DNA from: Lytechinus pictus
Taxonomy: Eukaryota
Direction of reading: 5' to 3'
Assembly: GCF_037042905.1 (NCBI RefSeq)
Contig: NC_087245.1
Location: 24,492,001 to 24,556,000, forward strand
DNA: 64,000 nucleotides
Made by a program: the position numbers and the translations under genes. Shown one piece after another: positions 328 to 21,870 of the stretch (positions are counted from its first letter, which is position 1; every line of letters starts with the position of its first letter). The notes under the pieces are model-generated. The model worked only from the letters and a program-made list of their open reading frames with translations, was not told the DNA's origin and ran no database searches.

Positions 328-599
328 TAAATTAATCACACGATGAAGTTCACTTGTAAAATTCGAACACAAATGATAAAAAACACTGCAAAACATCGAT
401 TAATAATATACAGTAATTTATTAATTGTTCCGAGCTCTTTTTATTTGTCTTTGCATTAAAAGGGATATTTTATTGTTGACCAAAATATCAAAGAAAATTC
501 TCAATTGTCATCTTTTTTTTTTTACAGTAGGCACTCTTATATCATTATAACGTAACAGCCTCCATCTATTCAATTTGCTTCTATCACGCAAAAAAATGC

Positions 600-1874
600 T
601 TTATTTGTTTTGATAATGAAATGAAAGTACTGACATATAATAACGTTCGGCGTATCGGCCTATCACAATGCTTATAAATGTTCACAGAGTATGAAAAATA
701 AAACCATGTGTAACATTTGTCAATTTAATCGGTTAACTTAAGGATCTTTCTGTAAGTTGCATTATTTTATACTTCATGTTTGATATAACACTGCTATTGA
801 TCAAACATCAATTTTATGTGAAAGGAAACAAGCAGCGTGGAGTTCTTCATAAAATTTGGTTTTGGTGTATTTATCTTTATATTATTGTCATTTTCAAACA
901 TAGAGCATGAAATTAAAACCGGTGAGGATAACTTAAAATAGCAATATATTCTATCATCATAGCACATCTGTGTTTTAAATGGGACCATACCTCTAGCAAG
1001 TTTTATTAGATTTATATACCAAATTTGTCAGACTAATTACACTTTTTAAACTTCATGTTATATTCACAAATAGCAATCTTTCATATACAGCTTATTTGCA
1101 TTTGAATATATACATACCATCTAGTACTTATTCATTAATATAAACATTCGGGGTGCCTGCCTCTAGAATAATTATGTATTTGTGTGAATTCAATATGGTT
1201 GTCTAAAATGTCTATAAAAGTAACACGTTTATCCGAACGGAGCAAACATACCCTAATCTTTCATTAATCTATCCCAGGACGGTATATCTCTGATAAATAT
1301 CATTACAATCAGAGTAAGCCAACAGAGATGATGCAGCTTTTATTTAAAAAAAAACACCTAGATTACAAATATTCTACTTTCTAGTATTCAGTTATTTTGT
1401 TTCATTTCATACAATGAAGGAAAGGGACAAAAAAGTATCAAAACTGCAGCTAAATTGTACACTTAGACTCCTATCAAGTGAAACCGTTTAATATTCAAAA
1501 ATTCTTCTATGAAAACTAGAAAAGTATACTTCTACATTATTTTGAGAAATTCAAACATGCCTTTATATCGTGTTATGCTGGAATAATGTATTCAGTCGTA
1601 GGCGTTAGCTGCTCACTGTAAGTCATTAGTATGAACATCATCTCTTCCTTATATCCGGATGATTTTTCCACCGTGGATCATTAAATATAATGGATAATGG
1701 AATTGGGAGGGAAGAGGAATAATTTCGAAGCCAGTGATCTAATGAAATATGGCAGACGGATCGAACGAAAAGGTCAGGAATGTGTTTAGTCTTTGTTGTA
1801 AAAAGGTGTCGATGGTGTAGCGATCTGCAAGTAATAATGACAAGAAAAGAAAGAAAGAGAATGACGAAATACAT
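600..1874 (-). other. Putative terminal 3'UTR exon of the neuropeptide gene (3' end uncertain)
   Basis: Strong acceptor cctctctttccttttaattttttCAG (1877-1875) pairs with the donor at 2720 (846-nt intron). Minus-strand AATAAA candidates at 1339-1344, 1002-1007 and 600-605. Confidence 0.6.
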
Positions 1875-2269
1875 CTGAAAAAATTAAAAGGAAAGAGAGG
1901 TAAAATTTACAGGCAAAAAGTAAAAAAAAATAGTAATCAAGTAAATAAATTTTCAAAAGACACATTTCTCGTCAGATTTCTTAGGCATGTTAGGAAATGA
2001 TTATATTTTGCTGATCCCTAAGTTGTTAAAAGAAATGACAGTCAATGCATCAGTGGAGCCAGCGAATAAAGGACAAGTCTTCAGCCTGGGGTCCTTTCGG
2101 TCATTGACAGTTTTGTTTTAGTGGGACGGGCGCGGATCCAGGGAGGGGGATGATGGGAAAAATGGCGAGAATTTTATTTTTGAAAGGCTCTCATAGTACA
2201 CTTTCATCAATTTGAAACACTTTAAAAGCTTGTGTAAGAATCAGAAAAGATAGTAGACAATTTTTCACT

Positions 2270-2464
2270 GCTGACAGAACACTGCTCTCACAGCGGGCCA
2301 TGCATAACCTAATGCTATATTACTCTTCTCCATTCTAAAACGTCAAGCGCCTGACAATACTTCAGAAGATCAAAATTTAAGTATGTGGTATGACTCGGCC
2401 GAGGATCGCACTTACGACCTCATGTTCATGAGGCGGGCGCTATACCACCGAGCAACCATGTCCG
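2270..2464 (-). mobile_element. Decayed tRNA-derived SINE (MetaSINE-like) in the 3'UTR intron
   Basis: Reverse complement shows a tRNA-like head (ggttgctcggtggtatagcgcccgcctc...) followed by ggccgagtcatacca; related copy at 52398-52620. Confidence 0.6.
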
Positions 2465-2728
2465 ATAGAAATCGGTGGTAAAATAATTTAAATCAAATTA
2501 TTGACACGACATACTTTTCTCAAAGCATTATCTCAGTTAATGTTAATGGCATGGAAACCAATTAGCAGATTTCAAAATACCCCCCTCTCTCTCTAGCAGT
2601 GTCCTTGTAATTCTTGATAAGCACTTGTTCAATTGTTCAATGCAGAGACGGTAAAGGGAATGGACAGTGAAGGACGCCCTCTCGGCCATCTTTGATTGGA
2701 TCAATCTTCAAATCACTCACCTGCTTTA

Positions 2729-2862
2729 TTAGGACTCCATCTGCTGGTCTGATCGCTTGCCACTGTTCAGGAGATTCCTCAGCCTGTTCACATTCTTCAT
2801 CATTCTCCAGTTGTCAACATTAGCAAGGCCAAGATGTTTTACTGATCCTCTTTTCGACATAG
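2729..2862 (-). CDS. Neuropeptide precursor, coding exon B (mature amidated peptide + C-terminal extension)
   Basis: Acceptor tttcatttgtctacAG (CAG at 2865-2863). Phase matches exon A (G+CT = Ala), reading (A)MSKRGSVKHLGLANVDNWRMMKNVNRLRNLLNSGKRSDQQMES-stop (TAA 2731-2729). KR and G-KR processing sites flank the peptide; donor CAG|GTGAGT follows after 2721. Total CDS 303 nt = 100 aa + stop. Confidence 0.92.
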
Positions 2863-4339
2863 CTGTAGACAAATGAAATAAACGTGTTCATTTTTAGACA
2901 TAGTATACTTTTAAGTTCCCAGCTGGTTTAAAAAAATCTAAGCTCATAGCTAGTTCTGGAATAATTATAAGGCAATTTAAAGAAATTAAAAAAAATATAT
3001 ATCCAGTTCAAATAAATTCATAAAACTAAACTAGAAAAGTAGAAGGTACATATTCATGAAAAAAATACGAAATGGTGATGGCACCCTCTTGAAATATACA
3101 CTTCTGATCCTTTGGGGGATCAATTCGATTTGTCATCGGTGAAATATTTTAGCACATTGTAAGTAATACCTCATCTTATAAGAACCTGAAAGAAAAGTCA
3201 TTATTTCATACTCCTTTTTCTGTGAATGTCGTCGAAATGGCCAAAAGTGTTTATCCATTCGGTCAACTTTAGTAGTGACAAAGACATGTACATTTTATTT
3301 TGCCAGGAGTGTTTATCCATGGTTTTGGTTTATCGAAGTTGTGGTTTGTTATTCGTCCTTTGGTAGCATCTTTGGACGTTTCTGGAAATGATTTCTGACA
3401 CATTTGAAGTTATTAAATGTGCATCAATGTGAACCACCCCAGCCTGTCAAATACACATTAATGGCCCTTTAATCTCTCGCAATTCTAACGGTGTTACGTT
3501 AATAATTTGCGTCATCGAAAAATACACAACATGAAGTTCTTCCAAGATTCAGGGTGTTTTTTGGTCTGGGAGGGGGGGTTCAGACTTACGAGTTTATTCA
3601 ACGGCTCTTTCTTGGCAACGTAAAGAAAAAAATACGATTTTAAGAATACTGGTCTTTTTCTATTTTCTATCTGAGTTCCCTATCGTAAAGCTTCCCCAAT
3701 GATCTTAGGGCTGTTTTTGTTTATTTTGCTTTTACGATTGATTCCACGTGGTTATTATTTACAAACAATCGTACAAATCACTGAATTTGCTATCAATGGC
3801 ACGTTAAAACCTTCTGTTGTAACATTCTAAACCATCATAATGTGATTGGCCGAGGGGTATATGTCCTAGAACTAGACACGGAGTAGCACCGACTAAAGAT
3901 CAAAAACATGATTTTCATGACTGATTGCAGATTTTGATCTTTATTTTGATCACTTTGGGAAACAAACATAATTATGTTCCTTACGATAGCTGTTACACAA
4001 TGGATGATTATCATATATTTATGAATCTATGTGACTTGTGAATAACACTTCCTTTTTTTCATTTTTTTTAAAAGTTTTTTCCAAGATTAAACGAGCCTCT
4101 CTTCAAGCAGTACTTAAATTTGTTCAAACAGCTTCGTTTTTCCTATAACCTTGGAGTTAAATACGACAGAATATATCCATTATGTGCCTCATGGTTGGGA
4201 ATCATTATGCATAATGAGGCATTGTGTTCAAGATTATTCATCGTATTGTATTGTAATATAGATTATGATAAAGGAATAGGATTATAATGCGTCGAATCGA
4301 CCATGCTGATTGATCAAGTCAGGTCAGGTTTTCCTGCTA

Positions 4340-5955
4340 CTGGTAACCATGTAACCCAGTACTACCTGTTTCATGGCCGGGTGGTCCTAAACCTAATATC
4401 TGGTGAGTAGGTGAACACCTAAAACAGGATTTGGGACTTACATTTATACCTGTCAAACTGTGGATGAGTAGCTGGTCAGCCAATGGCTACCCAAGGCAGA
4501 TAAAAACTGAAAATCGTACTGCTTTATTCAAAACGAATTTGATAAAAATTTGTACAGACAGATTTCAGAATTCGATAAACAGTACTATGAAAAACACTAG
4601 AGCGCGGACATGAAGAACAGATAGAGTCAGCAAGGCAGTGGCCTATATATGTTGGGCCAGTTGTAATGCTACAAACGTAGTATTTCATCGGAATCCCCAC
4701 TTTCATGCTGTGAATGTCAAGAAACACACTGAATACGGAACAATAGGACCATGAACATGACTGGAAGCTGGAGAATCGATGAAGACGGATTGGACGGTAC
4801 AATAATGGAAAACATCGAAATTTTAAAAACCAACAGGCTTGGGATGGGAGAGATCACCGAACATACCACTTTGAATACCTTCGAAATTATTTTCAGAATA
4901 AAGCAGAAAGGGGCAGTATTCGTCCTTTCAGGAATGCACACGCAGTAAATGTTGCGACTTATAGCATTTCTGACAGATTGATCGTGATGAACCTAAATGC
5001 CTAATCAACAAGAGATACTCTTCCAACCAGCCAATGTCAAAAAAGAAGAACACGGAATTCTCTTATACTCGAAGGACATTTTGGGAAACAGAATACATAT
5101 GACCACCTCATCATTTTGAGAGATTCCAAAGTGTGAGGAAAAAAAGTCAAGATGAAAAACAGATCTCCAAAATATTGCCAGCCAATAAATTGACGGCAAA
5201 TCTGCAAACAGATTGACAGATTTGTCAAAGATTCAATCAGATTGGAGAACAAAAGTATTACTTTAATTCTAAAATATACATGGCAAAGATGCAAAAGCAG
5301 ATAATGCAAATAGAATAATGGAGCGATGGCATATCAGCATGAGACGAGCTCACCTTGAAATTCCAGCTATGAACTTTGTGAGGACAATAAGTATAGAAAG
5401 AAATCAAGATTAGATGCCTAACCAACAGTATTTCTAAAGAACTTAAAAGGGGAAGTGTAAACCTATTGGTGAGATTATGTGTAAATTTGGATTTACGAAC
5501 TGATGTAAATGCTCACATTACCAAGGAAAATGATGAAACAAACATGACCAAATACTCTTCTAAACTTTAGGGAGGATTTGCCATACAAATTTTAGGTGTC
5601 ATAAAGATGGAGAAAACTTAAAGTTTACTAGGGTCTGATTAATTTGGATTTGAAGCTAGACCTCTATAGGCCAAGGCCGCAGAGTATAGATGTGAAAGCG
5701 TTTGAACGAGTGAACTCTGTCAAACTATTTGGGGATGTTTAAATATCTTGGAGTAAGTTGGAAGAATCAATGCCCCCGGAATCTGGAGAGGTGGGGACAG
5801 TGAATATAACACCAAACCTGTAAAAAAGAAAGGAGTTAGTTAAGGATGTCTACTTCCTCCTATCCTCTTCACTGTGTATGCAGATACCATTATACTGGGA
5901 ACGCTTGGTCACTGCCTCACTGGGCGGAATCGTCATCGGGAGCAGAATCGGTTCT
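4340..5955 (+). mobile_element. Degraded RTE-like LINE (endonuclease and reverse transcriptase remnants)
   Basis: Endonuclease-like remnant (IEILKTNRLGMGEI) near 4.8 kb. RT motif KGVS*GCLLPPILFTVYADTII at ~5829-5895 followed by GGIVIGSRI. Multiple stops and frameshifts. Confidence 0.7.
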
Positions 5956-6884
5956 TAGTTTACAAGTCTAATGTTAATGACAACAAATAAATGCCACTGT
6001 GGCTGAGATGATGCATTCACTCCTTGCAATGTGGAAAGAACTTCGTAATGAGTTGTGGCTGTGGAGAAGAATGGAATGGAATGAAGAAAGAGAAGTATCC
6101 TAACGAACGTTGCGGGAGCGGAAAATGGCCCGCTCCTCACCGCTCGCAATATTTTGTGCAGCTCAAAACTCTCGGAGCGGTAGAAGGGACCATCAGCGGT
6201 GGCCGAGCGAATACGGCGTTGCCCTAACGGTGGCCAAGTTTTGTTAAACGGTGGTGAACGGTAACGAGTGGTGATGATTTTTTTTTACCGCTCCAGCAAA
6301 GTTCTGGCGGTGTGACCACTACTTTAACTCGAGTTAAGAGTCTGAATATGCCGCCTACTCACGCCTTGTGTACTGAATTGAAACAACAAGTTTTGTATGT
6401 GCTAGTCTTTGCGTGCAGTCACACTTGTTGATCAAAATTTCAATCAGGGTCTGTGCCTGCAGACTAAGTTATGGCTGTTTAAGACTATTGCTCCTCAAAA
6501 TCGTATATAAAAATTACAACCTCATTTCAAGATTGTTTATGATACCTTCCGGACAATGGAAAGTGAATGAAAGATTCATAAAACTGTCAGTCTGTGATAA
6601 CGCCACCCAGTCCAAGGTTAGGGGGGAGAGAGAGAGTATAATGGAATGCTCCTTCGGTCAGAATTCCAGGGCTAAGCACAGCCTATAGAACGCCCCTGTT
6701 CTTTGCTTCGACTGAAAAGACTAATATAAACAGCCACTTGAATGAGAGGGTGCCTTCAGGTCACATGACTTCTGACGTGTTGATATTGGCGCCACGAATA
6801 CATTTCCTAGCCCATGGCCGTGCCAACTGTATCTTTTTATCAAGTGTTTCGTAATTAAGAACCAGTGCCGTTATCATATTTCAC

Positions 6885-7450
6885 GTCCATTCAATTGAAG
6901 GAAATTGACAAACGTTTCCTTCAAAAAAAAAATTGATTACCATGTTCGTCAGAAGAAACCATGGTGCTGTATAGATCACTTTTTCTTGAAAGTACATAAA
7001 ACATGAAATCCGGTCGAAGTTACATAACAGATTAACGTTGACCTCGGGAAAACATTGATAAGACAAACGGATATGCCATGTTTTCCTATTATAAAAATGG
7101 ATTAAAGGTGATCTTGTTGGACACATGGATATGCATGTGTCCAATGGGATAACAGTCATTGTCAGGAAGCCATGTTTCCCGTTAATAGTTCTTATGTATT
7201 TAAAAAAAGTGATCTGCACTGCACCCTTGTTTCAACATTTGTCCGAAAGAGTAGGTGTATACGTTGAACTGTAAAGGGAAATGAAGTGAGTCAAAAAATT
7301 CCAATTCCGTAGAAACGTCATTGGAAAAGTGGGAAAAGAATGAGAAACAAACGGCAAGAAAGAAAATCATCGGATCTTCTGAGATGCTAAGAATTGTAAA
7401 CAGCATTGAAAATGGATTTATGGATAAGATTAGGAGAGACACAAAATATT
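6885..7450 (+). pseudogene. Possible highly decayed MULE/SWIM-type transposase fragment
   Basis: Broken reading frame gives LLDTWICMCPMG followed after a frameshift by KPC, resembling a SWIM CxCx(n)CxH finger. Confidence 0.25.
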
Positions 7451-9333
7451 GATGTTTGTTGGTAAGATCACACAGGCAGGGAGCAGACAGGTATCGTATT
7501 TTCGAAAGTTGATGACGCATGACAGTTCACATGATTGGCCAGGGCTCCCCGGGAGACTGGAACTGGTTACCAGCTTTTCCTCACTGTGACGCAGTCTAAA
7601 CAATCACAAATCTATTTTCCAAATCATTGTATATTGCATACTACACACAAATCTAAACTTCGAAAGTTGCAGTAAATTACATGGTCTTATTTTTGCCTTG
7701 ATCTGAAAAGATTTATCAAGGCTAGCTTCAGTCCTTTGCTTTATTGGGGGGGGGGGGGTGTGATGTCAAACCGCTTCCTGGTCATTCCCCTTTTCGTCTT
7801 AAAAAAAGAAGATTCAACGAAGTTTTCGATGTACTTCATTTTCAACAATAATGTCCTGATAGAAAGAATGACTGTTTAACCATTTTCATATCATATGAAA
7901 AAAATGAAACAAAATAAAAGAATGTAGGCAAACGGTTTCAATATATATTGATAGATACAATGATTCTTAGCATATGTAACTCGTAAATCATCATGAATGT
8001 GCCTACTTCATCTGAAATTTTGAAAAATTATAATCTCTTTATCATCGTTGAGATTGGTTATACAAATGACAATATTAACATATCATGTTTTAAAGATATA
8101 ATTTGGTGATAAAATGGATATTTAATTACTATCTGTACACACTATGCAGCTGCACAAGTGTCACAAACGAGTATATGGGACCTCATGAAAACATGACATT
8201 AAACACAAGAAAGCAAAACTAACATTATTTTGCTGTTTTATCACTATCATATTCATTCAAAATCGCCTGTGTTTCCAGTTCAAGATATTTGTAGTTTTGC
8301 TGAATGTAACATTCATCGGTAAAGCATTTTGGCAGTCATTTATTTTTATATTTCATTGTCATCATCTTCACCCGTCAAAATTCAAAGTCATAACCATGGT
8401 TGATTGCTTCCCCTTCCAGACGCCAATGTTGGATTGTGATCTACCCTTCCCAACAGATCCCCAGGGGGTTTGTCTTTTGTATTAATCTAAACACAAGATC
8501 ATGCATCAATCTTCTACAATACTCCTGGTATTTATTTTCGCTTAATACTACATCTCCTCTCTCTTCTCTCTCTCTCTCTTTATTCGATTGCTACGACTAT
8601 ATGGAAAACTCGAACGGACTTCGCCCAGAGCGTCCAAAGGAAATTCCAAGTTTTTCCTGTATTCACCTGCGAAAAACTGTTTCCTTTTTCCCGTTCCTTT
8701 TGAATTTGCATCACCTGGTCTCACAGGAGGCCGATGGATTAAGGTGAAGTCGAGGGTAGTTAGGCTAAACGTCAGAAGTTCAAATATTTGTTTTTTCTAT
8801 ATCAAACTTTCCTCATCCATTTTGGATGCCTCGAACGTTTCCACGGGTTGTATCTGTGTTCTCTGCATGCTTATCAATCATTGTCGCACCATAATTCTCA
8901 GGTCTCTTTTCTTTGGTTTCATTTCCCATTTTTATCAATTTTATTTCTCTCTCTCTCTCTCTTTCTCCCTCTCCCCCCCCCCCCCTCTCTTTCGCCTATT
9001 TCATGTCGATCGATATTTTGTATTTCCTACCCAACATCTGTTCTTGAAGCTAATTCACTTACACGAAGTTCTTTTCTCGAATCTTGTGAATCAACGAATG
9101 TGGTAAACACGCATTCTTCATTCATATAATGGTTGAAAGATGTCTAACACTGGGCAGTTAGTCCCCCCCCCCCCTCCCCACCACCCAGACACCTTGGGAC
9201 GATTTTCGAAGAGGAGGTACTGGTTTCGAGAAACAAAAAAAAAAGGGTTTTTGGTCCAAAATGAAGGTTCTTTCGTTTCAAATTTCATACATTTTATCAT
9301 ACCAACCTAGTTTCAAGATTTTGCTGCCTATGG

Positions 9334-11145
9334 TCATAGGAGGATCCAGGGTTGGCGGAGCCAAAAAAGGGGGAAAGAAAGAAAGAAAAAGAAGATAAAA
9401 TAGAGGAGAAAATGAGGGGAAACATATGAGAAGGAAGACGAGTGAAATAAGATGAGGGGAAGACTTGGAAAATAATTTGTAAAAATCTGTAATGTCACTA
9501 TAAAAGTTTCGCTCGCGCTTCGCGCTCGCATTGCCTTTTAGGTGATTTACATATCTTGCTCAATATGGAGCCTTAGATATCAAATTTGAAAGTCAATACA
9601 CAAAACACATTTCAGCTCGCAAATCGAACTTTCATGATTTTGTGTGATTTACAAATTAATTTTTAAAAAAGTGGTCTGTTTTATGGTCTGAATACTAACA
9701 TTTTCTGCTCGTGCTGCGCGCTCACAAAATTTGATTTGTCGGGTACCTATTATTTTCCTGTGTTCCATAAAGTTATCAAAATATCCCTATTCATGTCAGA
9801 TTGTCAAAACGTATCAGCTAGCGCTGTTCCCTCACATTTTGATTGGTGCCTTATGTATATTTCAATATTATTTCTACAAGAAACTACTTAAAATCCCCAT
9901 TTTATGACAGTTTATAAAAAAATTCGGCTCACGATTTGCGCTCGCATTGATTGTTGAAAATATATTAACTCATGCATCTTGTTCATAATTACAAAAGTGT
10001 TTTAAATATCAAGTTTTCAGGCCATAATAATAGCAGATTTTGCGCTCTCGTTAGGCTTATTAGATTGATAAATAAATTTAGTAATCAAAATGTACCTTTT
10101 TCAGAATGGAATATCGACAATTTTCATCTCGCGCTTAATAAGAGAAATAAGAAGATTTTCATATGATGACATATCAATGTTCTTAGAATGTCCCGGTCCT
10201 ATGTCAAAACTCAAAGTAATAATGAAACATATCAGCTCTTTTTAACTGTGATCCATATCCACCTCACAATTTTCCTACAAAGTGCTTGAAATACAGAGCT
10301 TAAATTGACCTTTTTGGGGATCGGAATATCAAATCTTTTAAGCTCGCGCTTCGCGCTCGCTTTATTGATTTTCATGTTAAAAAAAGGTATTCTAGGTCGA
10401 AATCTGAAACACGCGCACGCATTTTTATTTAGATACGCGGCTTGTTCTCTCTTTGATTTATTATCCAGTTTCATATCACAATATCAAACATTTTCTGCTC
10501 GCACTTTGCGCTCGCATTATTAATGTAGGAAGATTTTCAATTACTCATCCTTTTCATGATTTACAAAACATGAATAGAGTGTCCCATTTTTAGATGTAAA
10601 TCTCGATTTTTTCCGCTCGCGCTTCGCGCTCGCATTAATTGTTTTATTGTTATATACTTATCTTTTTCACGATTACAAAAAGTGCCTAGAATTTCCATTC
10701 TTCAGGTAAAAATATTAACATTTTCAGTTCGCGCTCGCATTATATTATTATTGAAATATGTAACATCTTCATGGCTAACTGCAAGCAGCCCGTTAACAGA
10801 TCCTTTTTTTATCAGATCAAAACGTATATTAAACATTTCTGTTAGCGCTTTGCGCTCGCAGTAATTATTAAGCTGGATACACATTTTGCTTAGGATCACA
10901 AACATTGCCCAGAATGTTTGAATTTTAGGACAAAATACATGAAATTAAAAAAAACTCGCGCTTCGCGCTCGCACTATTTAAGTAATGATTACGAGATCAC
11001 TATATATTTCTGTTGATTTATAAGAATAAAGCTTAGAAGTTACTATTAGGACTACCCCTTGAAACAAACAAAAATCTAAGTCGAGCGGCCGATCGGGGAA
11101 AATGTGGCTGAAAAAAATCCGCCCCCCCCCCCTTTGGCGAACATA
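9334..11145. mobile_element. Non-autonomous hAT-like element with internal degenerate tandem array
   Basis: Begins cataggaggatccaggg and ends near ccgccccccccccctttggcgaa. About 12 copies of GCTCGCGCTTCGCGCTCGCA, mostly ~100-120 bp apart. Confidence 0.6.
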
Positions 11146-11759
11146 CGAAGCACCCACATAAAAATCTTGGGGTGCTTTAGATCAGATCCCGCTTCCCAAG
11201 TCCATGTCTCCATCCCTCACCTAAAAAGATGGAAATAAGAGTATAAAATTTGCATGGACTGACACAATATTGTATGACGTAAACAAACATCTATAATTTA
11301 TGATATTGTGGGCACGATTTGTCAAAGTTTTGATATATTTTATTTTGTCAATTTTTTGTTGTTCGTCCATGGTTAGAATGTCGTGCGCTGACTATGTAGT
11401 AATAAATCTGCACTCCAATTGGGGGATCTTACGCATGAAAATTACCAGAGGTAGACATAAAACAACACAACTTTCTTAATGAAATCGGACATTGGAGTAC
11501 AAAATAATGTTTGAATGATGGAATGTTAAGAAGAATTTGTCGAAATCTTTACCATTTATTTGTTACGAAGATTAACATTTTGTTTAGTAATCCATAAAAC
11601 ATAAAGCATCGGAAGTTTCTAAGCGGGGAGGTTTGGAATCATGCATTCCGTTTTGTTAATTTAGTGTATTCCGCGATCATTTTTCCCCAGCTTTAGAATA
11701 TTATTTTTTGTTATTTTAGTGTATTCCATGATTATTCCAAGGTTTCAAATTTGAAATTA

Positions 11760-12100
11760 TGATGAGGGATTGATGGACGGTGAACAAGAGAATGCCCAAG
11801 GGCGAAATATGTTGCAATCAGCAAAGTTTTGGTTTCTAACAAGATATCCATGTGGATGTATTCCGTTCATCCTGGCTGGGAGCATGATGAGAGCCAATTC
11901 CAGCTCCTCATATTTCCAGACGATTTCCATTTTGTTTGTGGTTTATATATTTCGACTTTCTTTGGAATTCAAAAGAATATCCAGAAATTAGCATCGAATA
12001 CAAATCATTTATGGACATTGCAGTGTTCGTGCAGATGTGAGGTAATCAGGGGACGCTAGAGATTGGTTTTGCAACCGTTGAACATGTGGTCATTGACATG
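11760..12100 (-). mobile_element. Decayed L1/Tx1-like ORF2 C-terminal remnant
   Basis: Minus-strand IHPHGYLVRNQNFADCNIFRPWAFSC resembles the zf-RVT region (LHGxLxTNxxL...C). Confidence 0.35.
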
Positions 12101-12918
12101 GGTCTTCTTGCTATTTCTCCTTCCCACCCCCACTTTCAACATCTCTCTCTCTCTCTCCTCTATCTTCCTCTTTATCTCCTTATCTCTCTCTCTCTTACTC
12201 CGTTTCCTTCCTTCTCTACCTTCCCTACCTCTCAGCCACTTTTCTTTAATTATCTCTTCATTTCACTACAATCTACCACTACTGATACGACGGTGACTAA
12301 TCGTTGATCAAGAGGAATTCTTTGCATCGATATTTTGGGGTGTTGTGACTTGTTTTAAAATTCTGTGTATAAAGTAAAACATCTCCGTATCCCCGTTAAT
12401 TGAATGGTGATAAACTAAAGGGCTATCCCCCATAATATCACCAATTTTTGTCTAGTTAGGCTTTACGGATTGGAAATCAGCATCTTCTTCTGACATGTCC
12501 TGTACATGTAGGTTTACATTCATATCCCAATTACTCCACTTTGAGATGAAGTAAAATCTAATGGCAAGGTTGCAAAATGTCTTCCTTGTGGCCTCATGGA
12601 CTGTCTTTATATTACAGGAGGTATACAGAAGGTCTTTGATGCTTTAAAGTGCCCTCTGTACGGTAACCGTGAAGCTTGCCCATACTCCTTCAGATAAGTT
12701 TTCTAATTTTGAGAGTGTTCTTGTCCCTGTCTGTTAAAGACGCTTTTGGGGTCAGCCTAGAATAATCATAAATGCACACCAAAGAATAATTTTCGACATT
12801 CGTTTCTCGGGATTTGTCATCCTTGATAAATTATCCTTTCCTCGAGGGGGCTTTCCCCTGAGGTGCCTACATTTCCTCTTCATCGATGAATACCTTTCCT
12901 ACATTAATTTTGTATCAG

Positions 12919-13064
12919 GGGAGCGTTTCATAAAAAGACTTTATCCGACGAGTCCCATTTTATCCGACAGTCACCATAGTAACTGTGCTTCTCAGCCAAT
13001 CAAAATCCAGGAAAGATGTCAGATCTGACAACTTGTCGGACAATAATGTTGATGAAACGCTCCC
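12919..13064. mobile_element. PIF/Harbinger-type MITE (family B)
   Basis: TIR GGGAGCGTTTCAT / ATGAAACGCTCCC with 3-bp TSD CAG; second copy at 58402-58558. Confidence 0.8.
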
Positions 13065-13069
13065 CAGAT

Positions 13070-13750
13070 CATCTTGGAATCTTCGTACGTGTCACATCTG
13101 GCAAATACTTAAAAATTCAAATAGCTTAAATGGGAAGATTCCCTTATATGATAAATAACAATGGTCCGAGTACATCCCCTTGTGGAACTAAAGTTAATAG
13201 TGAAGACTTTACGACTGTTTCATTAAAGTTAGTACTGTGTATTGTCCCTTTCCCACTTAGCAGTGTCTGGCCATGGATCTACCATTGGGGTAAAAAAATG
13301 TTTTGGCTGTCTGCAGTAGACCAACAATTTCTAGTGAGATATACCGAATATTTTTTTATGATCAATGGCATCCGATAAGATTGCTTCAATACATAACTTG
13401 GGGATGCATGCATATGAAACATACAATAACATTTCACTTTCGGAAAGGAAAGTTAATTCCATATTATTAACTCGAAATAATTAAATTCACAGGCATGTAG
13501 CTGTAATCACTTTGTATCCTAATAGACATCTGAAACTAAGGCAACAATTTTAAACAGTTTGTGGGACTTGAACTAAAATTTTGTTAGAAACGAAACATTA
13601 TATGCACTGAATGGTTTTTATTCCGCACACAGGTAATGCTTTAGTGAGAAAACTTGTCAATGCCTACTAAAACATTTTAAAAAAGTAGATTTATGACTTC
13701 AATAAAAACCTAATTTCTTCCCAATATGACTCTTAAGTTGAATAAGGTTT
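13070..13750 (-). mobile_element. Degraded CR1/L2-type LINE RT fragment
   Basis: Minus-strand [18 protein letters not shown] (~13130-13190), matching the RT motif [28 protein letters not shown] near 13360-13380. Confidence 0.65.
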
Positions 13751-14213
13751 TAAGTTTGGTGAAGGATTCAACAGAGAGCTAATAAAGGCATGAAACGTAC
13801 ATTTTGAGAAAACATAATTAAGACATACGTCCCTTTGGGGATATGTCGGAATTACCGAATTCCGTTAGATTTGGAATTCTCCCCTCAGGTAATAAATACT
13901 AAGACGTGATTTTTTTTGTAATACTCAATGGAATACTGTCTAAGGGATACAAGAACATTTAAAAATGCAATATAGATTGAGTCTATATCTCTATTGTTTC
14001 TGTTTCTTTATGGCAAATCCAGAAATTGTGAAGATCGTGACAAAACCAAATAAACCACGATTTATTTACATTCAAACCATAATATATCATATTCAAATTA
14101 AAAATGAAGTATGAAGAAGTTACACAGATCTTTACAATGGACAGGAATATGGAAAGCAAATAATATCAAAATACGATTCTCAATTAATTTCAATTTCATT
14201 AGCTACAATAGCT

Positions 14214-14411
14214 CACACTCCTAAAATGTTGGGCAGCATACTGTCCACACAACAGTTGGTTAAAAATTCATCCAACTCTGGGTAGCTTTCAACCAATATG
14301 TAGTTTTCACCCAAAGCACACATTATTGGTTTAAAACTACCTAGAATTTGATAAAGTTTTGATTAATTGTTGTGTGGGCGGTATGTTGCCCAACATTTTT
14401 TTAAATGTGTA
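14214..14411. mobile_element. CACTA/EnSpm-like MITE
   Basis: Inverted ends cacactcctaaaatgttgggcagcatac / gtatgttgcccaacatttttttaaatgtg; related copy at ~26000-26237. Confidence 0.6.
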
Positions 14412-15793
14412 ATGCCTGCATTAAACATTGATAGTTTGATATCTAAAAAATATATAGCAATTTTGATGCATGTTCTTTTATAAATCATCCTTATCCCCAA
14501 ACCATGACCGGTTATATTTACTTATGACCGCTCAGCACCGGTCAGAAACAGTTTTACTACAACTTCGTTTCGCACATGATATCCCAGTCTATCGTAAGTC
14601 ATGCGCAGCCTTACCAACACCATTCTTAATGAGTACCTTGCCAAATAGTTCTTACGTTTATGGGTACAAAGTACAAGCATAATATTATTCAGTATTATGG
14701 AACTTTCGAATTTTCATAATTTCCTTTGCAAAAATAACATTACAACCGAAATGCTAAATATATCCTTCAAGATTTTTTTTCTCAAATATATACTTTCAAT
14801 TTACACTGTTCATGATATTAGAGATTATCTTTTTTTTATTTCTAGTTAATTATTTTTACATAACTACAGTTGTTTTTATTTCATTTAATTGTTTAGATCA
14901 CATTTTCTTAATTTTTACTATGGCGATAACAGCAATCGAGGTTTGAAGTTTCCTAAATCATGCAAATCATGACATGAATTTCCCATTAGATAAATTCCTT
15001 ATGTCTATGTATGATGAATCGCTGATTAAAAAGGAAAAAAAGGATTTGTTTTTAAGTCTTGATTGATGACTGGAAAGCATTTTCCATGTTTTCCCCTCGG
15101 CTGATCAAAAGAAAAGGCAAACGCAAACAATTTTCGTATAATGCGAGTTAAAAGAAAACGAATCCTTCAGTTCGTGAACAATAATCGTGCATTTTAAAAG
15201 ATTAGCTATACTATAGCTTCAGATTCACTGAATATTTTAAGAGTGTAATTCGAACTGAAGTTTTTGGGATGTAACGATGAGAAGATGGATGGATTGAAAT
15301 ATCAAATTTTGAAATGATGCAACTGGAAATATAACAAGAAAGGCATGCAGAGGGAGATGTTTATGAGAAGAAAGATCAGTAGAAAAACTAAAATGTATAA
15401 GTCGAGTTCTAAAAGAGATGTTAACCAGGTGAAAGTGAATAGAATGCACAAGATTTGTTCCGATCCCCTAATCAGAAAGTATTATCGTGTACGAATTTTG
15501 TTGGATAATGAAAATTGAATTCGGTGAGAAATACAGATAATTAGACTATTTCAAATTACAATTTCCTCTGTAAAGATTTGTAGGCTTATCTTTTATTTCT
15601 GGCAATATTTCTGTTTTATAATGGCATTATTCGTACATACATGTAAGTTATGGGATTATGTTTAGACGTTTCATGCATATAAATTTGATTGTATGATTGA
15701 ATCAGGGGGACTATATCATTTGAGATTTGTGAAAGAAGTGATGGTTTAGGAAATAGGGGAACGCAATATACAGGGGTGATATATGGCGGATGC

Positions 15794-15952
15794 ACTGGCG
15801 GATCCAGGGGGAGGGCACAGCCGGCCCGTGCCCCCCCCCCCCTCCCATATGAGAAGCAAAATTAAAATTTGTAATGTAAAAATGCCATTAAAACAGAGGT
15901 GTGCCCCTTTTTTTGAAAGTGAAGACCTTTGGAAAATCCTGGATCCGACCCT
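15794..15952. mobile_element. hAT-type MITE (GGCGGATCCAGG family)
   Basis: Ends cactggcggatccagg / cctggatccgacc; homologous to 40085-40294. Confidence 0.7.
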
Positions 15953-16099
15953 CGGCGGAGGAGTAACGGATATTGGTTGAGTAGCGCTGTCGTATTCTGT
16001 TTTTTCTTTGGAAATTCTCCGATATGTATCTTGTTCATTTTCTGTTTCCTTGAAATAATTTTGAACCATGGAAGAATGCCATCATCAAGGGATAATGTA

Positions 16100-16575
16100 A
16101 ACTTGTAGAAAGTATGTTCACTATCTTTTTAATTTCTTCTGATGAAATGCCCGGCAATCCACATCCTTTCCAGTGTACATTCAACCATGAATGAACAATG
16201 TCCCCTTCAACTACCCTGCCTAAGGACGGATTATAAAATTTTTTTTTTTCAATATGTTGCTGCCGTCTTATTTAATTCGCTCCCTTGTGATATAGAAAAA
16301 TGCACATCCCTCCATGCATTCAAAAACACTGTAAATCATTAAATTCTGACTGTCATACATGTTATTACACTTAATGATTCCATGATACTTGTTGATTCAC
16401 TCTATATGTATAATGTATTCTGTTTTACTTAATTATAATTTATGTTACATACATTGAATTGCTATGATGTTGAGTTATTTGTTAAACTGCAGGGCGCCAT
16501 TGGAAAGCAGTTTTGCATAACTGAACACCGTGCAGTATAAAATGAAGTAAATAAAGAAATAATAAATAAATAAAT
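16100..16575 (+). mobile_element. 3' end of a CR1/L2 LINE
   Basis: ORF 16142-16342 LQLPCLRTDYKIFFFQYVAAVLFNSLPCDIEKCTSLHAFK matches the CR1/L2 ORF2 C-terminus pattern, followed by a cagggcgccattggaaagcag tail and (AAAT)n. Confidence 0.75.
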
Positions 16576-18390
16576 GATCGAGAGTTTTAGACCAAATGGA
16601 AGTAATTAACAACCTAAAAAGCGATAAAATGCTTGGGGTTCGACGTATATGTGATAGGGGTGCCAATTGGGCATGCGTTTGATGGTCAAAGTAGTAGCGT
16701 CAGACACACGAAGAACTGCACCTTCCAGAAAACCTATAATTGGCACGGTGGTATGAGATATGAATTTCGTATCTTGATATGTTAATCTCATGAAATATCA
16801 TTCGGCCTAAACCTGAATCCTAACAAAATTTATGTTCTTTTCCTATTAGTAATTACAGTCGAGTACTCCGTGCTCCATATCTCATTATTTCTGGGATCAG
16901 TGTGTGATTTCATTCCTTTGTATTCAGTGAATTATCCTGTTTTCGGATTATTAATACTAAACATAATAATAATAATAATAATTTTATCAGAAAATATTCA
17001 ACACGGTATATTATTTCTAATTCAGTATTAAAACACCGTTGATTGTTAATAAGAAAAGTATCGCCTGCTTGTAAGCGCAGGCAAAACTGTACACAATTTA
17101 TTTACTTAATATTGAGTATAAAAATATAATTCGTAACATGGCTTATATAGAGATCTTGTATAGGGAAAACGCCATACCAAGGTTTGGAAAACTTTCAATC
17201 AATTCCAAACTGATTGTGCTCCTTTAATTCATGCATCCGGAAAATCGGAAACATAAACCTTTACCAGGCTTGAGCCCCGTAATTCGGAGAGTAATTTTGT
17301 TCTCGCATTCAATTTTCTACTGGATCTATTTTCAGTACGCTATGATAGGCATTGTTACTCATGGGGAATCAAACGTATCGCATGGTATACGCATAGCAAA
17401 TTATTATACAGAGAAGAATATAGCAATATCATGATTAGAAAAATGAGAATAATGGGCGGAAATTAGAGGCGTTCAAAAGCGATTTTAATAACTGCCGCAG
17501 CATCACCTATTCACGATTAAATGTTAACACATAATCTTGTTGATTATGAACTATACATGCACTGCCTTGCTCCCTCGAATGTGCTAATTCATCCGATGGC
17601 ACACCACACATGATGAAAGAGGGAAAGAGGATACGAAAAGTGCAATCGTTAATGTTGACTTAATTTGGAAAATAATGTTTAACATTTATGTAAATATTAC
17701 AGCCCCCCTATCAATGCTTTTCAATGGAATTCATTTTTTACAATACAAACTGATTTAGGTCTACATCCTGTTACAATGATGATTAATTATCAATTAACAA
17801 CTGTAAAGGCCACCACACACGAAGGTTAACTTTGTTCAATTTTCGATGTTACAATAATGGCCCAATATAATAAATATCATTGAATCTTTACCAAAACTAT
17901 ACAGAAGAATCAAAAAGTCAATATGATGTTAATTTATAGATAAAATTCGTTTGAAAGATGTGCAGTGCAAACAGTTTTCGTGACAAAAAGTTTAGACAGT
18001 GCAGCGTGCCTCCTATGACCATAGGAATTGACATGCTGTATTCCACCTGACTTAAGCTAACTTTGTCTCGAAAAGTAATTCATAATTAGTCATTCCATGT
18101 ACTTCAGAGGATTTTTTAACGTAAAATATGGTACCAGTAAAGCTGAAGGTATTCTGATTTTTTATTATGGTAAAAGTTTGTATTATATATACAGGTTTGT
18201 TGTAAGTGACATCGTTATTTATCTTGTAGCTTCTACGCCAGTAAGATTTTATCAGATGCTTCTGTGAGGTTTCCAAAATGCAATTGGCTTTCATTAGCTC
18301 ATATACTCAGGTACATCATCAAAATTAAAACTTAGCCAACCTAGTAGTGAAACATTTATTTAATAGTTATCTAAAATAAGCCGTCACACC

Positions 18391-18565
18391 TAGTAGATGA
18401 TTCATAAAGTTGTTCGTAAGATACCAATACACTTATGCACGACAGGTGATCCTTTCTTGTGCTGAATGATATAGTAGTAGTTGACTTAATAGAATCTAAG
18501 AACAGGTTCCAGTTGTGCATGAAGTCATGCGTAACTTTACGAACAGCTTTATACGACACTCACCT
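18391..18565. mobile_element. Harbinger-type MITE family A, decayed copy
   Basis: Inverted ends ttcataaagttgttcgtaag / ttacgaacagctttat, shared with copies at 41.3, 44.7, 50.3 and 58.2 kb. Confidence 0.65.
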
Positions 18566-19042
18566 GAACGTTTTAGCCAGCGCATGCTGATGATTGTGGC
18601 AAGTCGTTTTCTAATTTAATCCTATTTTTTCATATCAAGAACTGCCTTTTGCTCAACAAAATTAATTGATTTAGAAAATGATTCCTAGATGTCTTGTATA
18701 TAAAAAAGAAATCCTCGACAAAGAATATAAAGAAAATCCTATAAAGAAATCGGATTAAACATGTTAAATGAGAAAGGCTTGCTTTGCTATACGCTCGTCG
18801 GAATACGCTTGCTGAAACCATGGGTGTATAAGAGACATCCTTGTTTGAGAGCCTCTTTACTTAATGGCCCCATGTTGAAAGAAGGGGAGGGGGAGGGATG
18901 TTGCATGTGTTTGAGTGGTCCGTCTGCACAGTTTTCATCTCTTATGTGTTGCTAAACTGATCCAGACATGTTTTTTTTTACGACAAACAGTAAAGGCGTT
19001 ACACCTCTACGAGTTATTGCCATGAAAATATCACTTGGCATT

Positions 19043-19401
19043 ACGGTGGCGTAACAAACGGGGTGCAGGGGTCGGGAACGTTTTATTTCGAAGAAATGTA
19101 TTGGAATGTAACCGAAAAATGATATTCTTATAAATGGTATTGTAATTTGATTAATCATGTCTCGTATTTAAATGTACAGGCTAGCGCTGGCTGGGTTTGG
19201 AGACTTTGAGGGGAATGGGTAATATTAATAAAGAAACAAAAGATTTGAAAAGTAAATTTAGAAATATCCATCATGAATTATTTAATAATTATGAAATAAT
19301 GTTATTGAGAGTAAGTTCCAACATTCTTTAATACTTTGACGAAGTTACATGAATTTTGTTACCCCCTCTCACCAGAAATACAGGTACTTGTTACGCCCCT
19401 G
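19043..19401. mobile_element. hAT-like MITE (GGCGTAAC termini)
   Basis: Ends ggtggcgtaacaa / ttgttacgcccctg. Confidence 0.5.
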
Positions 19402-20842
19402 CTTGGTAATTTACTATGTCTATCATGTCTATTGCATGACTAAGCTACCAATAAGCGAAGAAAGATGAAGGGAGATGAACCGTTTCTTCCCACGCTACTG
19501 TAAAGAATAATTTAATGCCAAGAAAATATCACTCTAGTCGTAAAATACCATTCTAGTCATAAAATCACATCCTACCACGCCTGGGATGAGTTTAGTTGAC
19601 GATCCGCTCAAACACTCGCCACAATTCATATCATATTTGTTATAACAATCTTTAATCATTTTGCTATCATTGAATATATCTTCTGTCGAACAGATGTTTA
19701 CATTGAAGACGGCATGGGGCTGGAATGTTGTAAATATTACATCTTTGGGCATCTCATAGGTTTCATGGTAGTTGTTTTACCCAATTAAGAATGAATGTTT
19801 TAACAAGATTTAGTAATAGCAAGCAACCATATCATCGATGGCTATAGATCCTCTCTGAGGGACGAGAGAATAGAAATTTAAGCCCACCTGAAGAGTTTTG
19901 GCGCATAGCTGGATTCAAACCCTAATTTGACTCTGTTTAGTCCATAATGCCAACTGAAATTCGTTCATCCAGAATAATTTGTAGTTTTCAAATTTGCAAG
20001 TTTTAGGACTGTACTTCACATGATAGTTACAATCGTGTGCACTACCAAGTGTAACGTAACACCCCCACACACACACAGACACACCCACACGCGCGCGCGC
20101 ACACGAATGGTTTACCGACATGAAATACGAGGATAAAATCTTAAAAAGTATTTTCATATCTAATGAAGATAGCATCCATGCTTACTCCCTACAGGAGGTA
20201 ACATTATGTCATACAGTGTGTTCACATAGCGGACTATATATAGATGTGATTAACACTGATAAATGTTCGAATCTAACAGTGTGAAGATAATTCCACACTG
20301 TGAACATACTGTGGAATGACGTGTTCATTCTAGCAGGGTTTCTTTTACGAGCGTTCTCTCTTTTCAATGGCCATCAGGTTTAGGCAATATAACTTTCATG
20401 CGTAAGTGAATTAAGAATTGAGTCAGTTCTAGAAGCGTTAGATGCCAAGAAAGTCATTTGGGAGTGAATCCTTGGTGGAAATAGTTAAATTGTACGAAAG
20501 GGTACAATTTAACACATGTGCACCTGCGGCATTTTCTCCGGTCTTAACTTTTCAGAGGGCATAGGGTTAGACTTAGGATTGTAATAAAGTTTTTGGTTCA
20601 GAATAATTTAAAGATTGTGAATAGGGTTTATTTAGTTTTATGTTTTGCTTAACGTGCGGATTTTCCATCCGGTCACCTGAGCAATTGTCATGGAACCGTT
20701 TTAAAGTTTATCATCGTTCCATCGAACAAGTTTGAAAGTAAATGTTAAGTGGATCGGAATTTATAATGGACTGCTGATTCTGCTGTAAGGGCAAGATAAG
20801 TTAATAGAAAAGGGGTGAAGGACATTGGGTATGCGGACTCAC

Positions 20843-21011
20843 CATGTTCTAGGCTTTCAATGATTTCGTATATCTCCTGTTCATCGAGTGCATTCTGTGC
20901 CGCCACGCCTCTCCTGTACTCGTCCTGGTCGAGTCCGTAGGCTTGACACGTCCACGCCACGCACACGAGGACGGCCAGGAAAGCTAACACAGCCTGGTAG
21001 ATACACTTCAT
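20843..21011 (-). CDS. Neuropeptide precursor, coding exon A (signal peptide + acidic pro-region, residues 1-56 plus 1 nt)
   Basis: ATG at 21011 in context GAAGAAG-ATG. Translates MKCIYQAVLAFLAVLVCVAWTCQA (hydrophobic signal, likely cleaved after CQA) then YGLDQDEYRRGVAAQNALDEQEIYEIIESLEH. Ends at donor CATG|GTGAGT (GT at 20842-20841), phase 1. Confidence 0.92.
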
Positions 21012-21205
21012 CTTCTTCGATACGTGTTAATCACTGCGATGACGCTGGCGATGCGAGTGTGAGGGATTGGGGAACTTGCGGCGGAGCTTGTGGCAATTGG
21101 ACCTGACGTTGGGGGTCAAATGAACTTCGACGTCTGCGGGTGAAAGACTTCAGATGTAGCTAGTGAGCGCAGGTATAAATGACAGCCTCTCGTGATCTTA
21201 ACCTT
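21012..21205 (-). other. 5'UTR part of exon A
   Basis: Long pyrimidine tract + acceptor (ctctctctctttttctcgtcaacaCAG, CAG at 21208-21206). No ATG between it and the start codon. A weaker alternative acceptor lies at 21136-21134. Confidence 0.6.
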
Positions 21206-21794
21206 CTGTGTTGACGAGAAAAAGAGAGAGAGGGAGATTTTTTTTACTAAAGTAGCAAAGACATTCACAATGTATTTTATATATAAATTACGATGTAGGA
21301 AGCAAATTATCAGTTTACTTCACCCTGGTATCCTATCACACCTTGAAATAACACACCCTCACATTTAATTACACCGCACACATACGCACAAACTCACAAC
21401 AATTCAAACTATACCATGAGTTCTCTTTCCCTTTCGATCTATCTTTATCACCCTCTTTCTCTCTCCATCTTTCTTTTCCCTTAAACACTGAATATTTCTC
21501 ACTGGCGCATATCTCAAACCTACACTTTTTCGCTATCCAAAGGGCTGTTGAAAACTCAAGAACGAAATCACCCGGGTATAATGGTATACAACACACGAAC
21601 TTCGGAAGGTGGTTTGTCCAAAATCCCATTCGCGAGGAAGAAAATCCTTTAGATTATCCCAGCTCTTTCTCCGATTTCCTCGACAAGTGGCAGCGAGAAT
21701 CTAAGACATGTGTAAGCCCTCAACGATGCTGTGAAAAATAATGCCACCATCACCACCTCCTCTGTTACTCTTAAACAATGAATTTTGGATGCCA

Positions 21795-21870
21795 TGGGTA
21801 TTTGTAAAAGGAGGGGGAGGGGTATGGTTGAGTTAATGACGTGGGCTTGAAGCTAGCTGCTGATTGGTGA
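21795..21870 (-). promoter_or_regulatory. Candidate core promoter of the neuropeptide gene
   Basis: In gene direction: CCAAT (21867-21863), CRE-like TGACGT (21837-21842), CCCCTCCCCC Sp/KLF-like box (~21812-21822) and TATA-like TACAAATA (21806-21799), in plausible order and spacing. Confidence 0.4.

What the first reader, a model, noticed from the sequence alone, without database searches (positions are those of the whole stretch)
2721..21205. Hidden orphan neuropeptide gene: 100-aa precursor split by an 18-kb intron, yielding a 29-aa amidated peptide
Seen: exon A (signal peptide + acidic spacer) and exon B join in phase through canonical GT/AG sites to give ...SLEHAMS-KR-GSVKHLGLANVDNWRMMKNVNRLRNLLNS-G-KR-SDQQMES. 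Exon B is absent from the ORF track. Established: KR...G-KR is the prohormone convertase plus PAM amidation signature. Inference: the product is GSVKHLGLANVDNWRMMKNVNRLRNLLNS-NH2. From memory it resembles S. purpuratus Spnp10, for which I know no receptor or function, so this is an uncharacterised signalling system.
Basis: partly seen in the sequence, partly recalled or inferred. Interest (0 to 1): 0.85.

Follow-up and report, generated by a model that had tools for sequence, protein, structure and literature searches.

The report
Sea urchin orphan neuropeptide gene Np10
This is a real, spliced sea-urchin gene for an ordinary neuropeptide precursor, very probably the already catalogued Np10, whose conserved 29-residue amidated peptide still has no known family, receptor or function.

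Summary
Confirmed. Exon A (CDS 21011-20843) and exon B (2862-2721) join across a 17,980-nt GT..AG phase-1 intron into a 100-aa precursor. A 104-aa Diadema orthologue keeps 25 of 29 peptide residues but 15 of 35 spacer residues. The gene is single-copy. It is a textbook prepro-neuropeptide. Identity with S. purpuratus Spnp10 (2012) is recalled, not tested: that paper was not held. No family could be assigned. The defining features of calcitonin/DH31, CRH, PDF and insect PTH are not met. The DH31 look-alike score falls from 0.94 for the precursor to 0.80 for the peptide. My best guess for the receptor is a secretin-class GPCR (about 45%). The genome holds two PTH-receptor-like exons, and no echinoderm ligand for that receptor type was reported in 2017. 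Verdict: real, probably known, still orphan; modest interest.

The parts
20843..21205 (-). Exon A: 5' UTR, signal peptide and acidic spacer. The 5' boundary is uncertain (acceptor-like AG at 21207-21206, or a start site near 21248)
   Evidence: the X15 contig covers 21186-20843
20940..21011 (-). Predicted 24-aa signal peptide (Lys2, hydrophobic core, Cys22-x-Ala24 cleavage)
   Evidence: 11-residue hydropathy peaks at 3.37; 19 of 24 identical in Diadema; SignalP not available
20910..20915 (-). Arg-Arg at residues 33-34, a second possible convertase site in the spacer
   Evidence: present in the window, P0003 and P0004
2863..20842 (-). Intron 1, 17,980 nt, phase 1, GT..AG, containing several high-copy repeat fragments
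   Evidence: (joint 2862/20843)
2721..2862 (-). Exon B, 142 nt: end of spacer, KR, peptide, G-KR, 7-aa tail, stop, 8 nt of 3' UTR
2849..2854 (-). Lys-Arg cleavage site, residues 60-61
   Evidence: identical in Diadema
2762..2848 (-). Predicted mature 29-residue peptide, Ser-amide, no Cys, net charge +4, monoisotopic 3347.79 Da if amidated
   Evidence: 25 of 29 identical in Diadema
2753..2761 (-). Gly-Lys-Arg amidation and cleavage signal, residues 91-93
   Evidence: 3 of 3 identical in Diadema
1825..2720 (-).
   Evidence: (joint 1824/2721)
403..1824 (-). Exon C, non-coding 3' UTR. 1824-1400 is covered by the contig; the end at 403 is extrapolated from the contig's length
417..422 (-). AATAAA just upstream of the extrapolated 3' end; likely poly(A) signal
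21275..21281 (-). TATA-box-like hexamer about 33 nt before an initiator-like A at about 21248; candidate promoter
   Evidence: read by eye; untested

Best explanation
A single-copy, three-exon gene for a sea-urchin prepro-neuropeptide, very probably the orthologue of S. purpuratus Spnp10/Np10. SHOWN: exon structure, splicing in one contig, the reading frame, and conservation concentrated on the peptide and its flanking sites. FROM ESTABLISHED KNOWLEDGE of prohormone processing: the signal peptide is removed after Ala24; PC1/3- or PC2-type convertases cut after KR 60-61 and KR 92-93 (possibly also RR 33-34); carboxypeptidase E trims the basic residues; PAM converts Gly91 to an amide. The product is GSVKHLGLANVDNWRMMKNVNRLRNLLNS-amide, released from dense-core vesicles. 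INFERRED: it is made in neurons and signals through a GPCR (about 0.8). The likeliest receptor is a secretin-class (B1) GPCR (about 0.45 absolute): the helical C-terminal two thirds would dock on the receptor's extracellular domain and the flexible, highly conserved N-terminal residues would enter the transmembrane core and raise cAMP. Among B1 receptors the unpaired PTH/glucagon/PACAP-clade ones are the first to test.
For: Splice joints at the exact predicted bases, with near-zero depth in unique intron bins. Orthologue at E 4e-15 over exon B; peptide 25/29 against spacer 15/35 identical, Fisher p = 0.0006; KR, G-KR and RR all conserved. A third species' exon-A read-through ends in the same donor context (inferred from the translation). 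One match in the 812-Mb genome. Language-model neighbours of the whole Diadema precursor are mostly peptide-hormone precursors, best DH31 0.94 and PDF 0.92; both act on class B1 receptors. The AlphaFold model has coil at 61-71 and helix at 72-98 of P0003, i.e. a flexible peptide N-terminus followed by a helix. The genome has 9 HRM-domain exon matches; of 5 compared with the PDB, one is nearest calcitonin receptors, two nearest PTH receptors, one weakly GLP/VIP/GHRH receptors and one had no hit. A gene named Np10 marks neural cluster C19 in Heliocidaris crassispina (PMC11817407, passage).
Against: No call showed that this sequence is Spnp10, so the neural-expression evidence is indirect. No peptide detection, expression site or receptor was tested. 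Raw RNA reads in 2 of 2 such runs did not cover the exons, and X1 lists no joint. The fold is low confidence (mean pLDDT 59.6, pTM 0.24, 4 sequences). The peptide is no more amphipathic than its shuffles (2352 of 5000 as high). The mature region alone has no Atlas neighbour at 0.9 or more; the best hormone clusters are NPY/PP-type 0.85 (class A ligands) and glucagon/VIP-type 0.83. No Pfam or PDB hormone hit, and the Hormone_2 and CRF profiles do not match exon B in the genome. The receptor assignments rest on single 31-41-aa exons.
Confidence: 0.8

Rival explanations
1. Same precursor and peptide, but the receptor is a rhodopsin-class (A) GPCR, as for other long amidated peptides (NPY/PrRP, galanin, orexin, QRFP types). 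This rivals the receptor step only.
For: The best hormone neighbour of the mature region is the NPY/PP cluster at 0.85; galanin, NPFF and gastrin/CCK precursors score 0.89-0.90 for the whole protein. Galanin/allatostatin-A, QRFP and neuromedin-U receptors were reported in ambulacrarians without ligands (PMC5627052, passage). No excess amphipathicity.
Against: All these scores are at or below the tool's lead level. There is no C-terminal RF/RY-amide or similar short motif, and the last two residues differ between the orthologues, whereas class A ligands usually conserve the amidated end (own knowledge).
Confidence: 0.3
2. The bioactive product is not the 29-mer: it is trimmed at single Arg/Lys residues, or a second peptide is released from the spacer by the conserved RR at 33-34.
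For: RR 33-34 is kept in 3 of 3 sequences; the peptide holds several single basic residues.
Against: The spacer is only 15/35 identical with indels while the whole 29-mer is 25/29; there is no dibasic pair inside the peptide.
Confidence: 0.12
3. A cationic defence peptide (antimicrobial or secreted venom-like) made from a prepro-protein with an acidic pro-piece, not a neuropeptide.
For: Net charge +4, amidation and an acidic spacer (9 of 35 residues D/E) fit this layout too (own knowledge).
Against: Single copy, strong conservation of the peptide, no excess amphipathicity, hormone precursors as nearest neighbours, and Np10 reported in a neural cluster if the name applies.
Confidence: 0.06
4. 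A chance join or a dead gene, with the joined contig coming from a processed retrocopy in a DNA run.
For: X15's library type is not on record; raw RNA reads did not show the joint.
Against: Only one exon-B match in the assembly; the intact orthologue is annotated in two Diadema species; unique intron bins have near-zero depth in X15.
Confidence: 0.02

Closest known systems
Strongylocentrotus purpuratus Spnp10 / Np10 (Rowe and Elphick 2012, PMID 23026496; paper not held, recalled)
   Same: By recall, a precursor of about 100 aa with one C-terminally amidated peptide and no known relatives. The Spnp numbering and the 13 unassigned precursors are confirmed by passages, and the name Np10 is in use.
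   Different: The sequences could not be compared here. If orthologous, this is only another species' copy; the exon map and 3'-UTR intron may be new details.
Diadema setosum / D. antillarum 'uncharacterized protein' (XP_071482444.1, XP_071497039.1, XP_072175897.1; P0003)
   Same: Same layout; 67 of 100 residues identical, 25 of 29 in the peptide.
   Different: 104 aa; the peptide would end in Gly-amide rather than Ser-amide.
Calcitonin / DH31 precursors
   Same: Signal peptide, acidic helical spacer and one amidated peptide of about 30 aa near the C-terminus; top Atlas neighbour of the whole precursor (0.94, 172 of 256 features).
   Different: No N-terminal cysteine pair and no C-terminal Pro-amide, the features named in PMC12638048. 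DH31 is described as protostome-specific. The score drops to 0.80 for the peptide region.
Echinoderm PDF-type precursors
   Same: Cysteine-free amidated peptides of 29-35 aa; by eye, five consecutive residues near the end of the Diadema peptide recur in Ophionotus PDF1.
   Different: Echinoderm PDF precursors carry two peptides and S. purpuratus already has a PDF precursor; the rest of the peptide does not align by eye.
PTH / insect PTH (PXXXamide) / glucagon-PACAP ligands of 'cluster B' receptors
   Same: iPTH has the layout signal-KR-peptide-G-dibasic-tail; PTH-receptor-like exons are in this genome.
   Different: Lacks the iPTH Ser-Asp pair and Pro at -4; no Hormone_2 match. iPTH is itself under 12% identical to PTH, so dissimilarity does not exclude the role.

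Membership tests
Prepro-neuropeptide (convertase/PAM-processed precursor) | N-terminal signal peptide | tested here: met
   Hydropathy and the -3/-1 rule by hand, conserved in Diadema; SignalP not available
Prepro-neuropeptide (convertase/PAM-processed precursor) | Peptide flanked by a dibasic site and Gly-dibasic | tested here: met
Prepro-neuropeptide (convertase/PAM-processed precursor) | Conservation concentrated on the mature peptide | tested here: met
   25/29 against 15/35, p = 0.0006; one pair of species only
Prepro-neuropeptide (convertase/PAM-processed precursor) | Spliced transcript | tested here: met
   Contig in 1 of 4 runs laid; library type not on record; no raw junction reads
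Prepro-neuropeptide (convertase/PAM-processed precursor) | Neuronal expression and detection of the processed peptide | not testable with these tools
   Indirect only; the two sea-urchin peptidomics papers were not held
Spnp10 / Np10 orthogroup | Sequence orthology to the S. purpuratus precursor | not testable with these tools
   Paper not held; no S. purpuratus hit in protein searches; peptide motifs absent from the texts and supplements searched. Identity is recalled.
Calcitonin / DH31 | N-terminal cysteine pair (calcitonin type) | tested here: not met
   No Cys in the peptide; feature
Calcitonin / DH31 | C-terminal Pro-amide | tested here: not met
   Ends in Ser (window) or Gly (Diadema); feature
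Calcitonin / DH31 | Match to the DH31 profile (PF27927) | not testable with these tools
   The family is not in the local Pfam copy; Atlas 0.94 whole, 0.80 peptide region
CRH / DH44 / ELH | Mature peptide of about 41 residues | tested here: not met
   29 residues against 41 for starfish CRH
CRH / DH44 / ELH | Match to PF00473 | tested here: not met
   the profile found no over-cut-off match anywhere in this genome, so its sensitivity here is low
PDF | Two PDF peptides per echinoderm precursor | tested here: not met
   One peptide; feature
PDF | Sequence likeness to PDF peptides | tested here: inconclusive
   No Pfam hit; Atlas 0.92 whole, 0.81 peptide; five shared residues by eye
PTH / iPTH / glucagon-PACAP clade | iPTH Ser-Asp pair and Pro at -4; Hormone_2 profile | tested here: not met
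PTH / iPTH / glucagon-PACAP clade | Activation of a cluster-B receptor | not testable with these tools
   Candidate receptor exons exist; no full-length receptor was obtained
Galanin / allatostatin-A | Family sequence motif | tested here: inconclusive
   No Pfam hit (I did not check that the galanin model is in this copy); Atlas 0.89, rank 25 of 30
Cationic amphipathic antimicrobial peptides | Strong amphipathic helix; multicopy, fast-evolving genes | tested here: not met

The most novel reading that the evidence does not exclude
This peptide is the missing echinoderm ligand of the PTH/glucagon/PACAP-clade ('cluster B') secretin-type receptors, diverged beyond sequence recognition as insect PTH is. 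It would be the first such ligand in a non-chordate deuterostome and would link insect PTH signalling with vertebrate PTH, glucagon and PACAP in an animal with a mineralised skeleton.
Probability: 0.15. Interest if true: 0.75.

Novelty: new member of a known kind. Interest (0 to 1): 0.3.

Why it matters
As a gene model it is ordinary: a standard neuropeptide precursor with a long intron, probably published for another sea urchin in 2012. Its value is as an orphan ligand. Several numbered sea-urchin precursors were later recognised as members of bilaterian families (Spnp11/15 eclosion hormone, Spnp12 GnRH-type, Spnp14 MCH, Spnp16/19 somatostatin), but I found no such reassignment for Np10 in the ten literature searches run (subscription journals are largely missing). 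Several echinoderm peptide receptors lacked ligands in 2017. A 29-mer is cheap to synthesise, and the candidate receptor loci are located here, so pairing them is a direct experiment.

Tried and rejected
Pfam: 0 families for either exon's translation; two unrelated sub-threshold hits for P0003. PDB sequence searches gave only an aldo-keto reductase at E 0.73 and 1.6, which is chance. Foldseek on the low-confidence model: no match at E 0.001 or better. Three searches for orthologues gave only P0003 and the 58-aa fragment P0004. No starfish, sea cucumber or hemichordate relative appeared, but neither did S. purpuratus, so the blank does not show that the gene is urchin-specific. Crinoid PCNP9-11 and the Ophionotus precursor list were compared by eye: no orthologue. 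Starfish Arnp21-25 were seen only as descriptions: none has this layout. No duplicate peptide exon was found in the intron or window, so there is no sign of calcitonin-style cassette exons. The 88-aa read-through ORF of exon A is rejected as the product: its intronic tail is not kept in P0004. No listed holder was on record as RNA, and raw-read runs X19 and X20 did not cover the exons: no information on expression. No neighbouring gene for synteny: 0 of 116 ORFs of 75 aa or more passed a Pfam cut-off, and Rfam gave 0 matches. A peptide-receptor complex was not predicted because no full-length urchin receptor was obtained. Papers not held: Rowe and Elphick 2012, Monroe 2018, Menschaert 2010 and one further PMC id. 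Supplements unreadable for PMC6209648 and PMC11817407; these probably list Np10 and bear directly on the naming. File 13 of PMC11521371 was not searched. A resemblance to part of galanin came from memory only and was not tested. Three of four look-ups of earlier scan findings were empty; the fourth gave unrelated genes.


Full report
1. Observation. The minus strand carries an ATG at 21011 and 169 coding bases to a GTGAGT donor after 20843. 17,980 nt further on, a pyrimidine tract and CAG end at 2863. The intron is phase 1. The joined frame is 303 nt: 100 residues and a stop at 2731-2729. KR lies at 60-61, a 29-residue cysteine-free peptide at 62-90 and G-KR at 91-93. Of 6 similar motifs in the window's six frames only this one has a phase-1 acceptor, and 2 of 30 shuffled windows gave any such hit.

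2. Transcript. I laid 4 of the 21 runs listed on 1400-21399. Run X15 holds a 1,908-nt contig of depth 46.6 in three pieces: 21186-20843, 2862-2721, and 1824 to the edge of the stretch. Both joints fall on GT..AG ends, so there is a second intron of 896 nt 8 nt after the stop codon and a third, non-coding exon. If the contig stays colinear it ends at 403, just after an AATAAA at 422-417 (extrapolated). Against over-reading: X15's library type is not on record, X1 lists no such joint (68 weaker joints were not shown), and the two raw-read RNA runs (about 6% of each read) had almost no depth on the exons. A retrocopy is unlikely because exon B has one match in the genome and unique intron bins are nearly empty in X15. 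The 5' end is open. The contig starts at 21186; the AG at 21207-21206 looks like an acceptor, but a TATA-like hexamer at 21281-21275 with an initiator-like A near 21248 would make exon A the first exon (by eye).

3. Conservation. Exon B finds one protein among 5 candidates: a 104-aa 'uncharacterized protein' of Diadema setosum and D. antillarum, E 4e-15. Identity by region is signal 19/24, spacer 15/35, KR 2/2, peptide 25/29, G-KR 3/3, tail 3/7; peptide against spacer p = 0.0006. A 58-aa unnamed fragment is exon A of a third form read into the intron, ending in the same donor context. An RR at 33-34 is kept in all three. No other relatives were found, but S. purpuratus did not appear either, so the range is not defined.

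4. Surroundings. None of 116 ORFs of 75 aa or more passes a Pfam cut-off and Rfam finds nothing. The intron holds ordinary high-copy repeat fragments and no duplicate peptide exon.

5. How it probably works. Signal removal, convertase cleavage, carboxypeptidase trimming and PAM amidation follow from established prohormone biochemistry and give a 29-residue Ser-amide of 3347.79 Da. Neuronal release and GPCR signalling are inferred (about 0.8). For the receptor class, these points favour class B1: the length, the lack of cysteines, conservation along the whole peptide with a variable amidated end, a model with a flexible N-terminus and a helix (low confidence), and DH31 and PDF precursors as nearest look-alikes. 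I put it at about 0.45. Against it: the peptide region alone has no neighbour at 0.9, its best hormone cluster is NPY/PP-type at 0.85, and it is no more amphipathic than shuffles (2352 of 5000). The genome has 9 HRM-domain exon matches, 8 on contig C13. I compared 5 of them with the PDB: one calcitonin-receptor-like, two PTH-receptor-like, one weakly GLP/VIP/GHRH-like, one without a hit. These are single short exons and only leads.

6. Known relatives. That paper was not held, the term Spnp10 returned 2 irrelevant papers, and peptide motifs were absent from the library and from the supplements searched. The identity is therefore recalled, not tested. The calls do show that 20 precursors were described, 13 without known relatives, that several were later reassigned, and that Np10 marks a neural cluster in H. 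crassispina. Family tests: calcitonin/DH31 cysteines and Pro-amide not met; CRH length not met; the two-peptide PDF layout not met; iPTH motifs not met; the Hormone_2 and CRF profiles do not hit exon B; the DH31 profile was unavailable. It works like a single-copy amidated hormone precursor but cannot be filed in any of these families. Receptors for PTH, galanin/allatostatin-A and others were reported in ambulacrarians without ligands in 2017, and no PACAP gene was found in echinoderm genomes in 2020; later work may have changed this.

7. What I saw of each paper. PMC6209648: abstract, introduction, one results section and passages; supplement unreadable. PMC5627052: passages, a supplement search and one whole supplement file. 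PMC4772807: passages and section 17. PMC9793003: passages and supplement passages. PMC11817407: passages; supplement unreadable. PMC12638048, PMC7224569, PMC7251081: passages. PMC8557429: passages and a supplement search. PMC8683087, PMC6586643, PMC11868395: term searches with 0 occurrences of np10. PMC6188537, PMC11521371: supplement searches only. Rowe and Elphick 2012: nothing, recalled.

8. Verdict. The gene is a conventional neuropeptide precursor, very probably already catalogued, with an unknown receptor. Interest 0.3. The boldest reading not excluded, that it is the missing ligand of echinoderm PTH/glucagon/PACAP-clade receptors, gets probability 0.15 and interest 0.75.

Noticed in passing
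window 20743-21399 against 1400-2066, run X1: Run X1 has depth 56.9 in the exon-A bin but 0 in the exon-C bin and lists no splice joint, and X1-X4 hold all sampled words of exon A. It may be a promoter-enriched DNA library or an exon-A-only transcript; unexplained.
   Followed up: no
window 9494-10991: A cluster of at least 8 copies of a roughly 20-nt GC-rich motif inside intron 1, in a region of high read depth, so a high-copy genomic repeat.
   Followed up: partly
window 14223-14399: Inverted repeat with 76-nt arms, 82% complementary, 25 nt apart, in a high-depth bin; MITE-like.
   Followed up: no
window 33214-34329 and 36881-37821: Two arrays of a related unit of about 160-170 nt in opposite orientation, upstream of the gene; possibly the long terminal repeats of one foldback-type element.
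   Followed up: no
window 31682-32617: Minisatellite with a 38-nt period, about 22 copies.
   Followed up: no
window 21800-21900: CCAAT-box-like and CRE-half-site-like motifs on the minus strand about 650 nt upstream of exon A, read by eye; could be the promoter of an upstream non-coding exon.
   Followed up: no
G000:C13:9.9-26.1 Mb (L002, L004-L010): Eight of nine HRM-domain exon matches lie on one contig, including near-tandem pairs at 16.1/16.3, 18.71/18.76 and 25.83/25.86 Mb: a linked set of secretin-class receptor genes.
   Followed up: partly
L014 (G000:C12:13763984-13764031): Weak match (E 4.76) to positions 2-17 of the CRF profile; the frame shows no preceding KR or closing Gly-dibasic site, so probably chance.
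   Followed up: partly
window 2725-2730: An AATAAA hexamer overlaps the stop codon of exon B just before the intron-2 donor; not used in the X15 contig.
   Followed up: no
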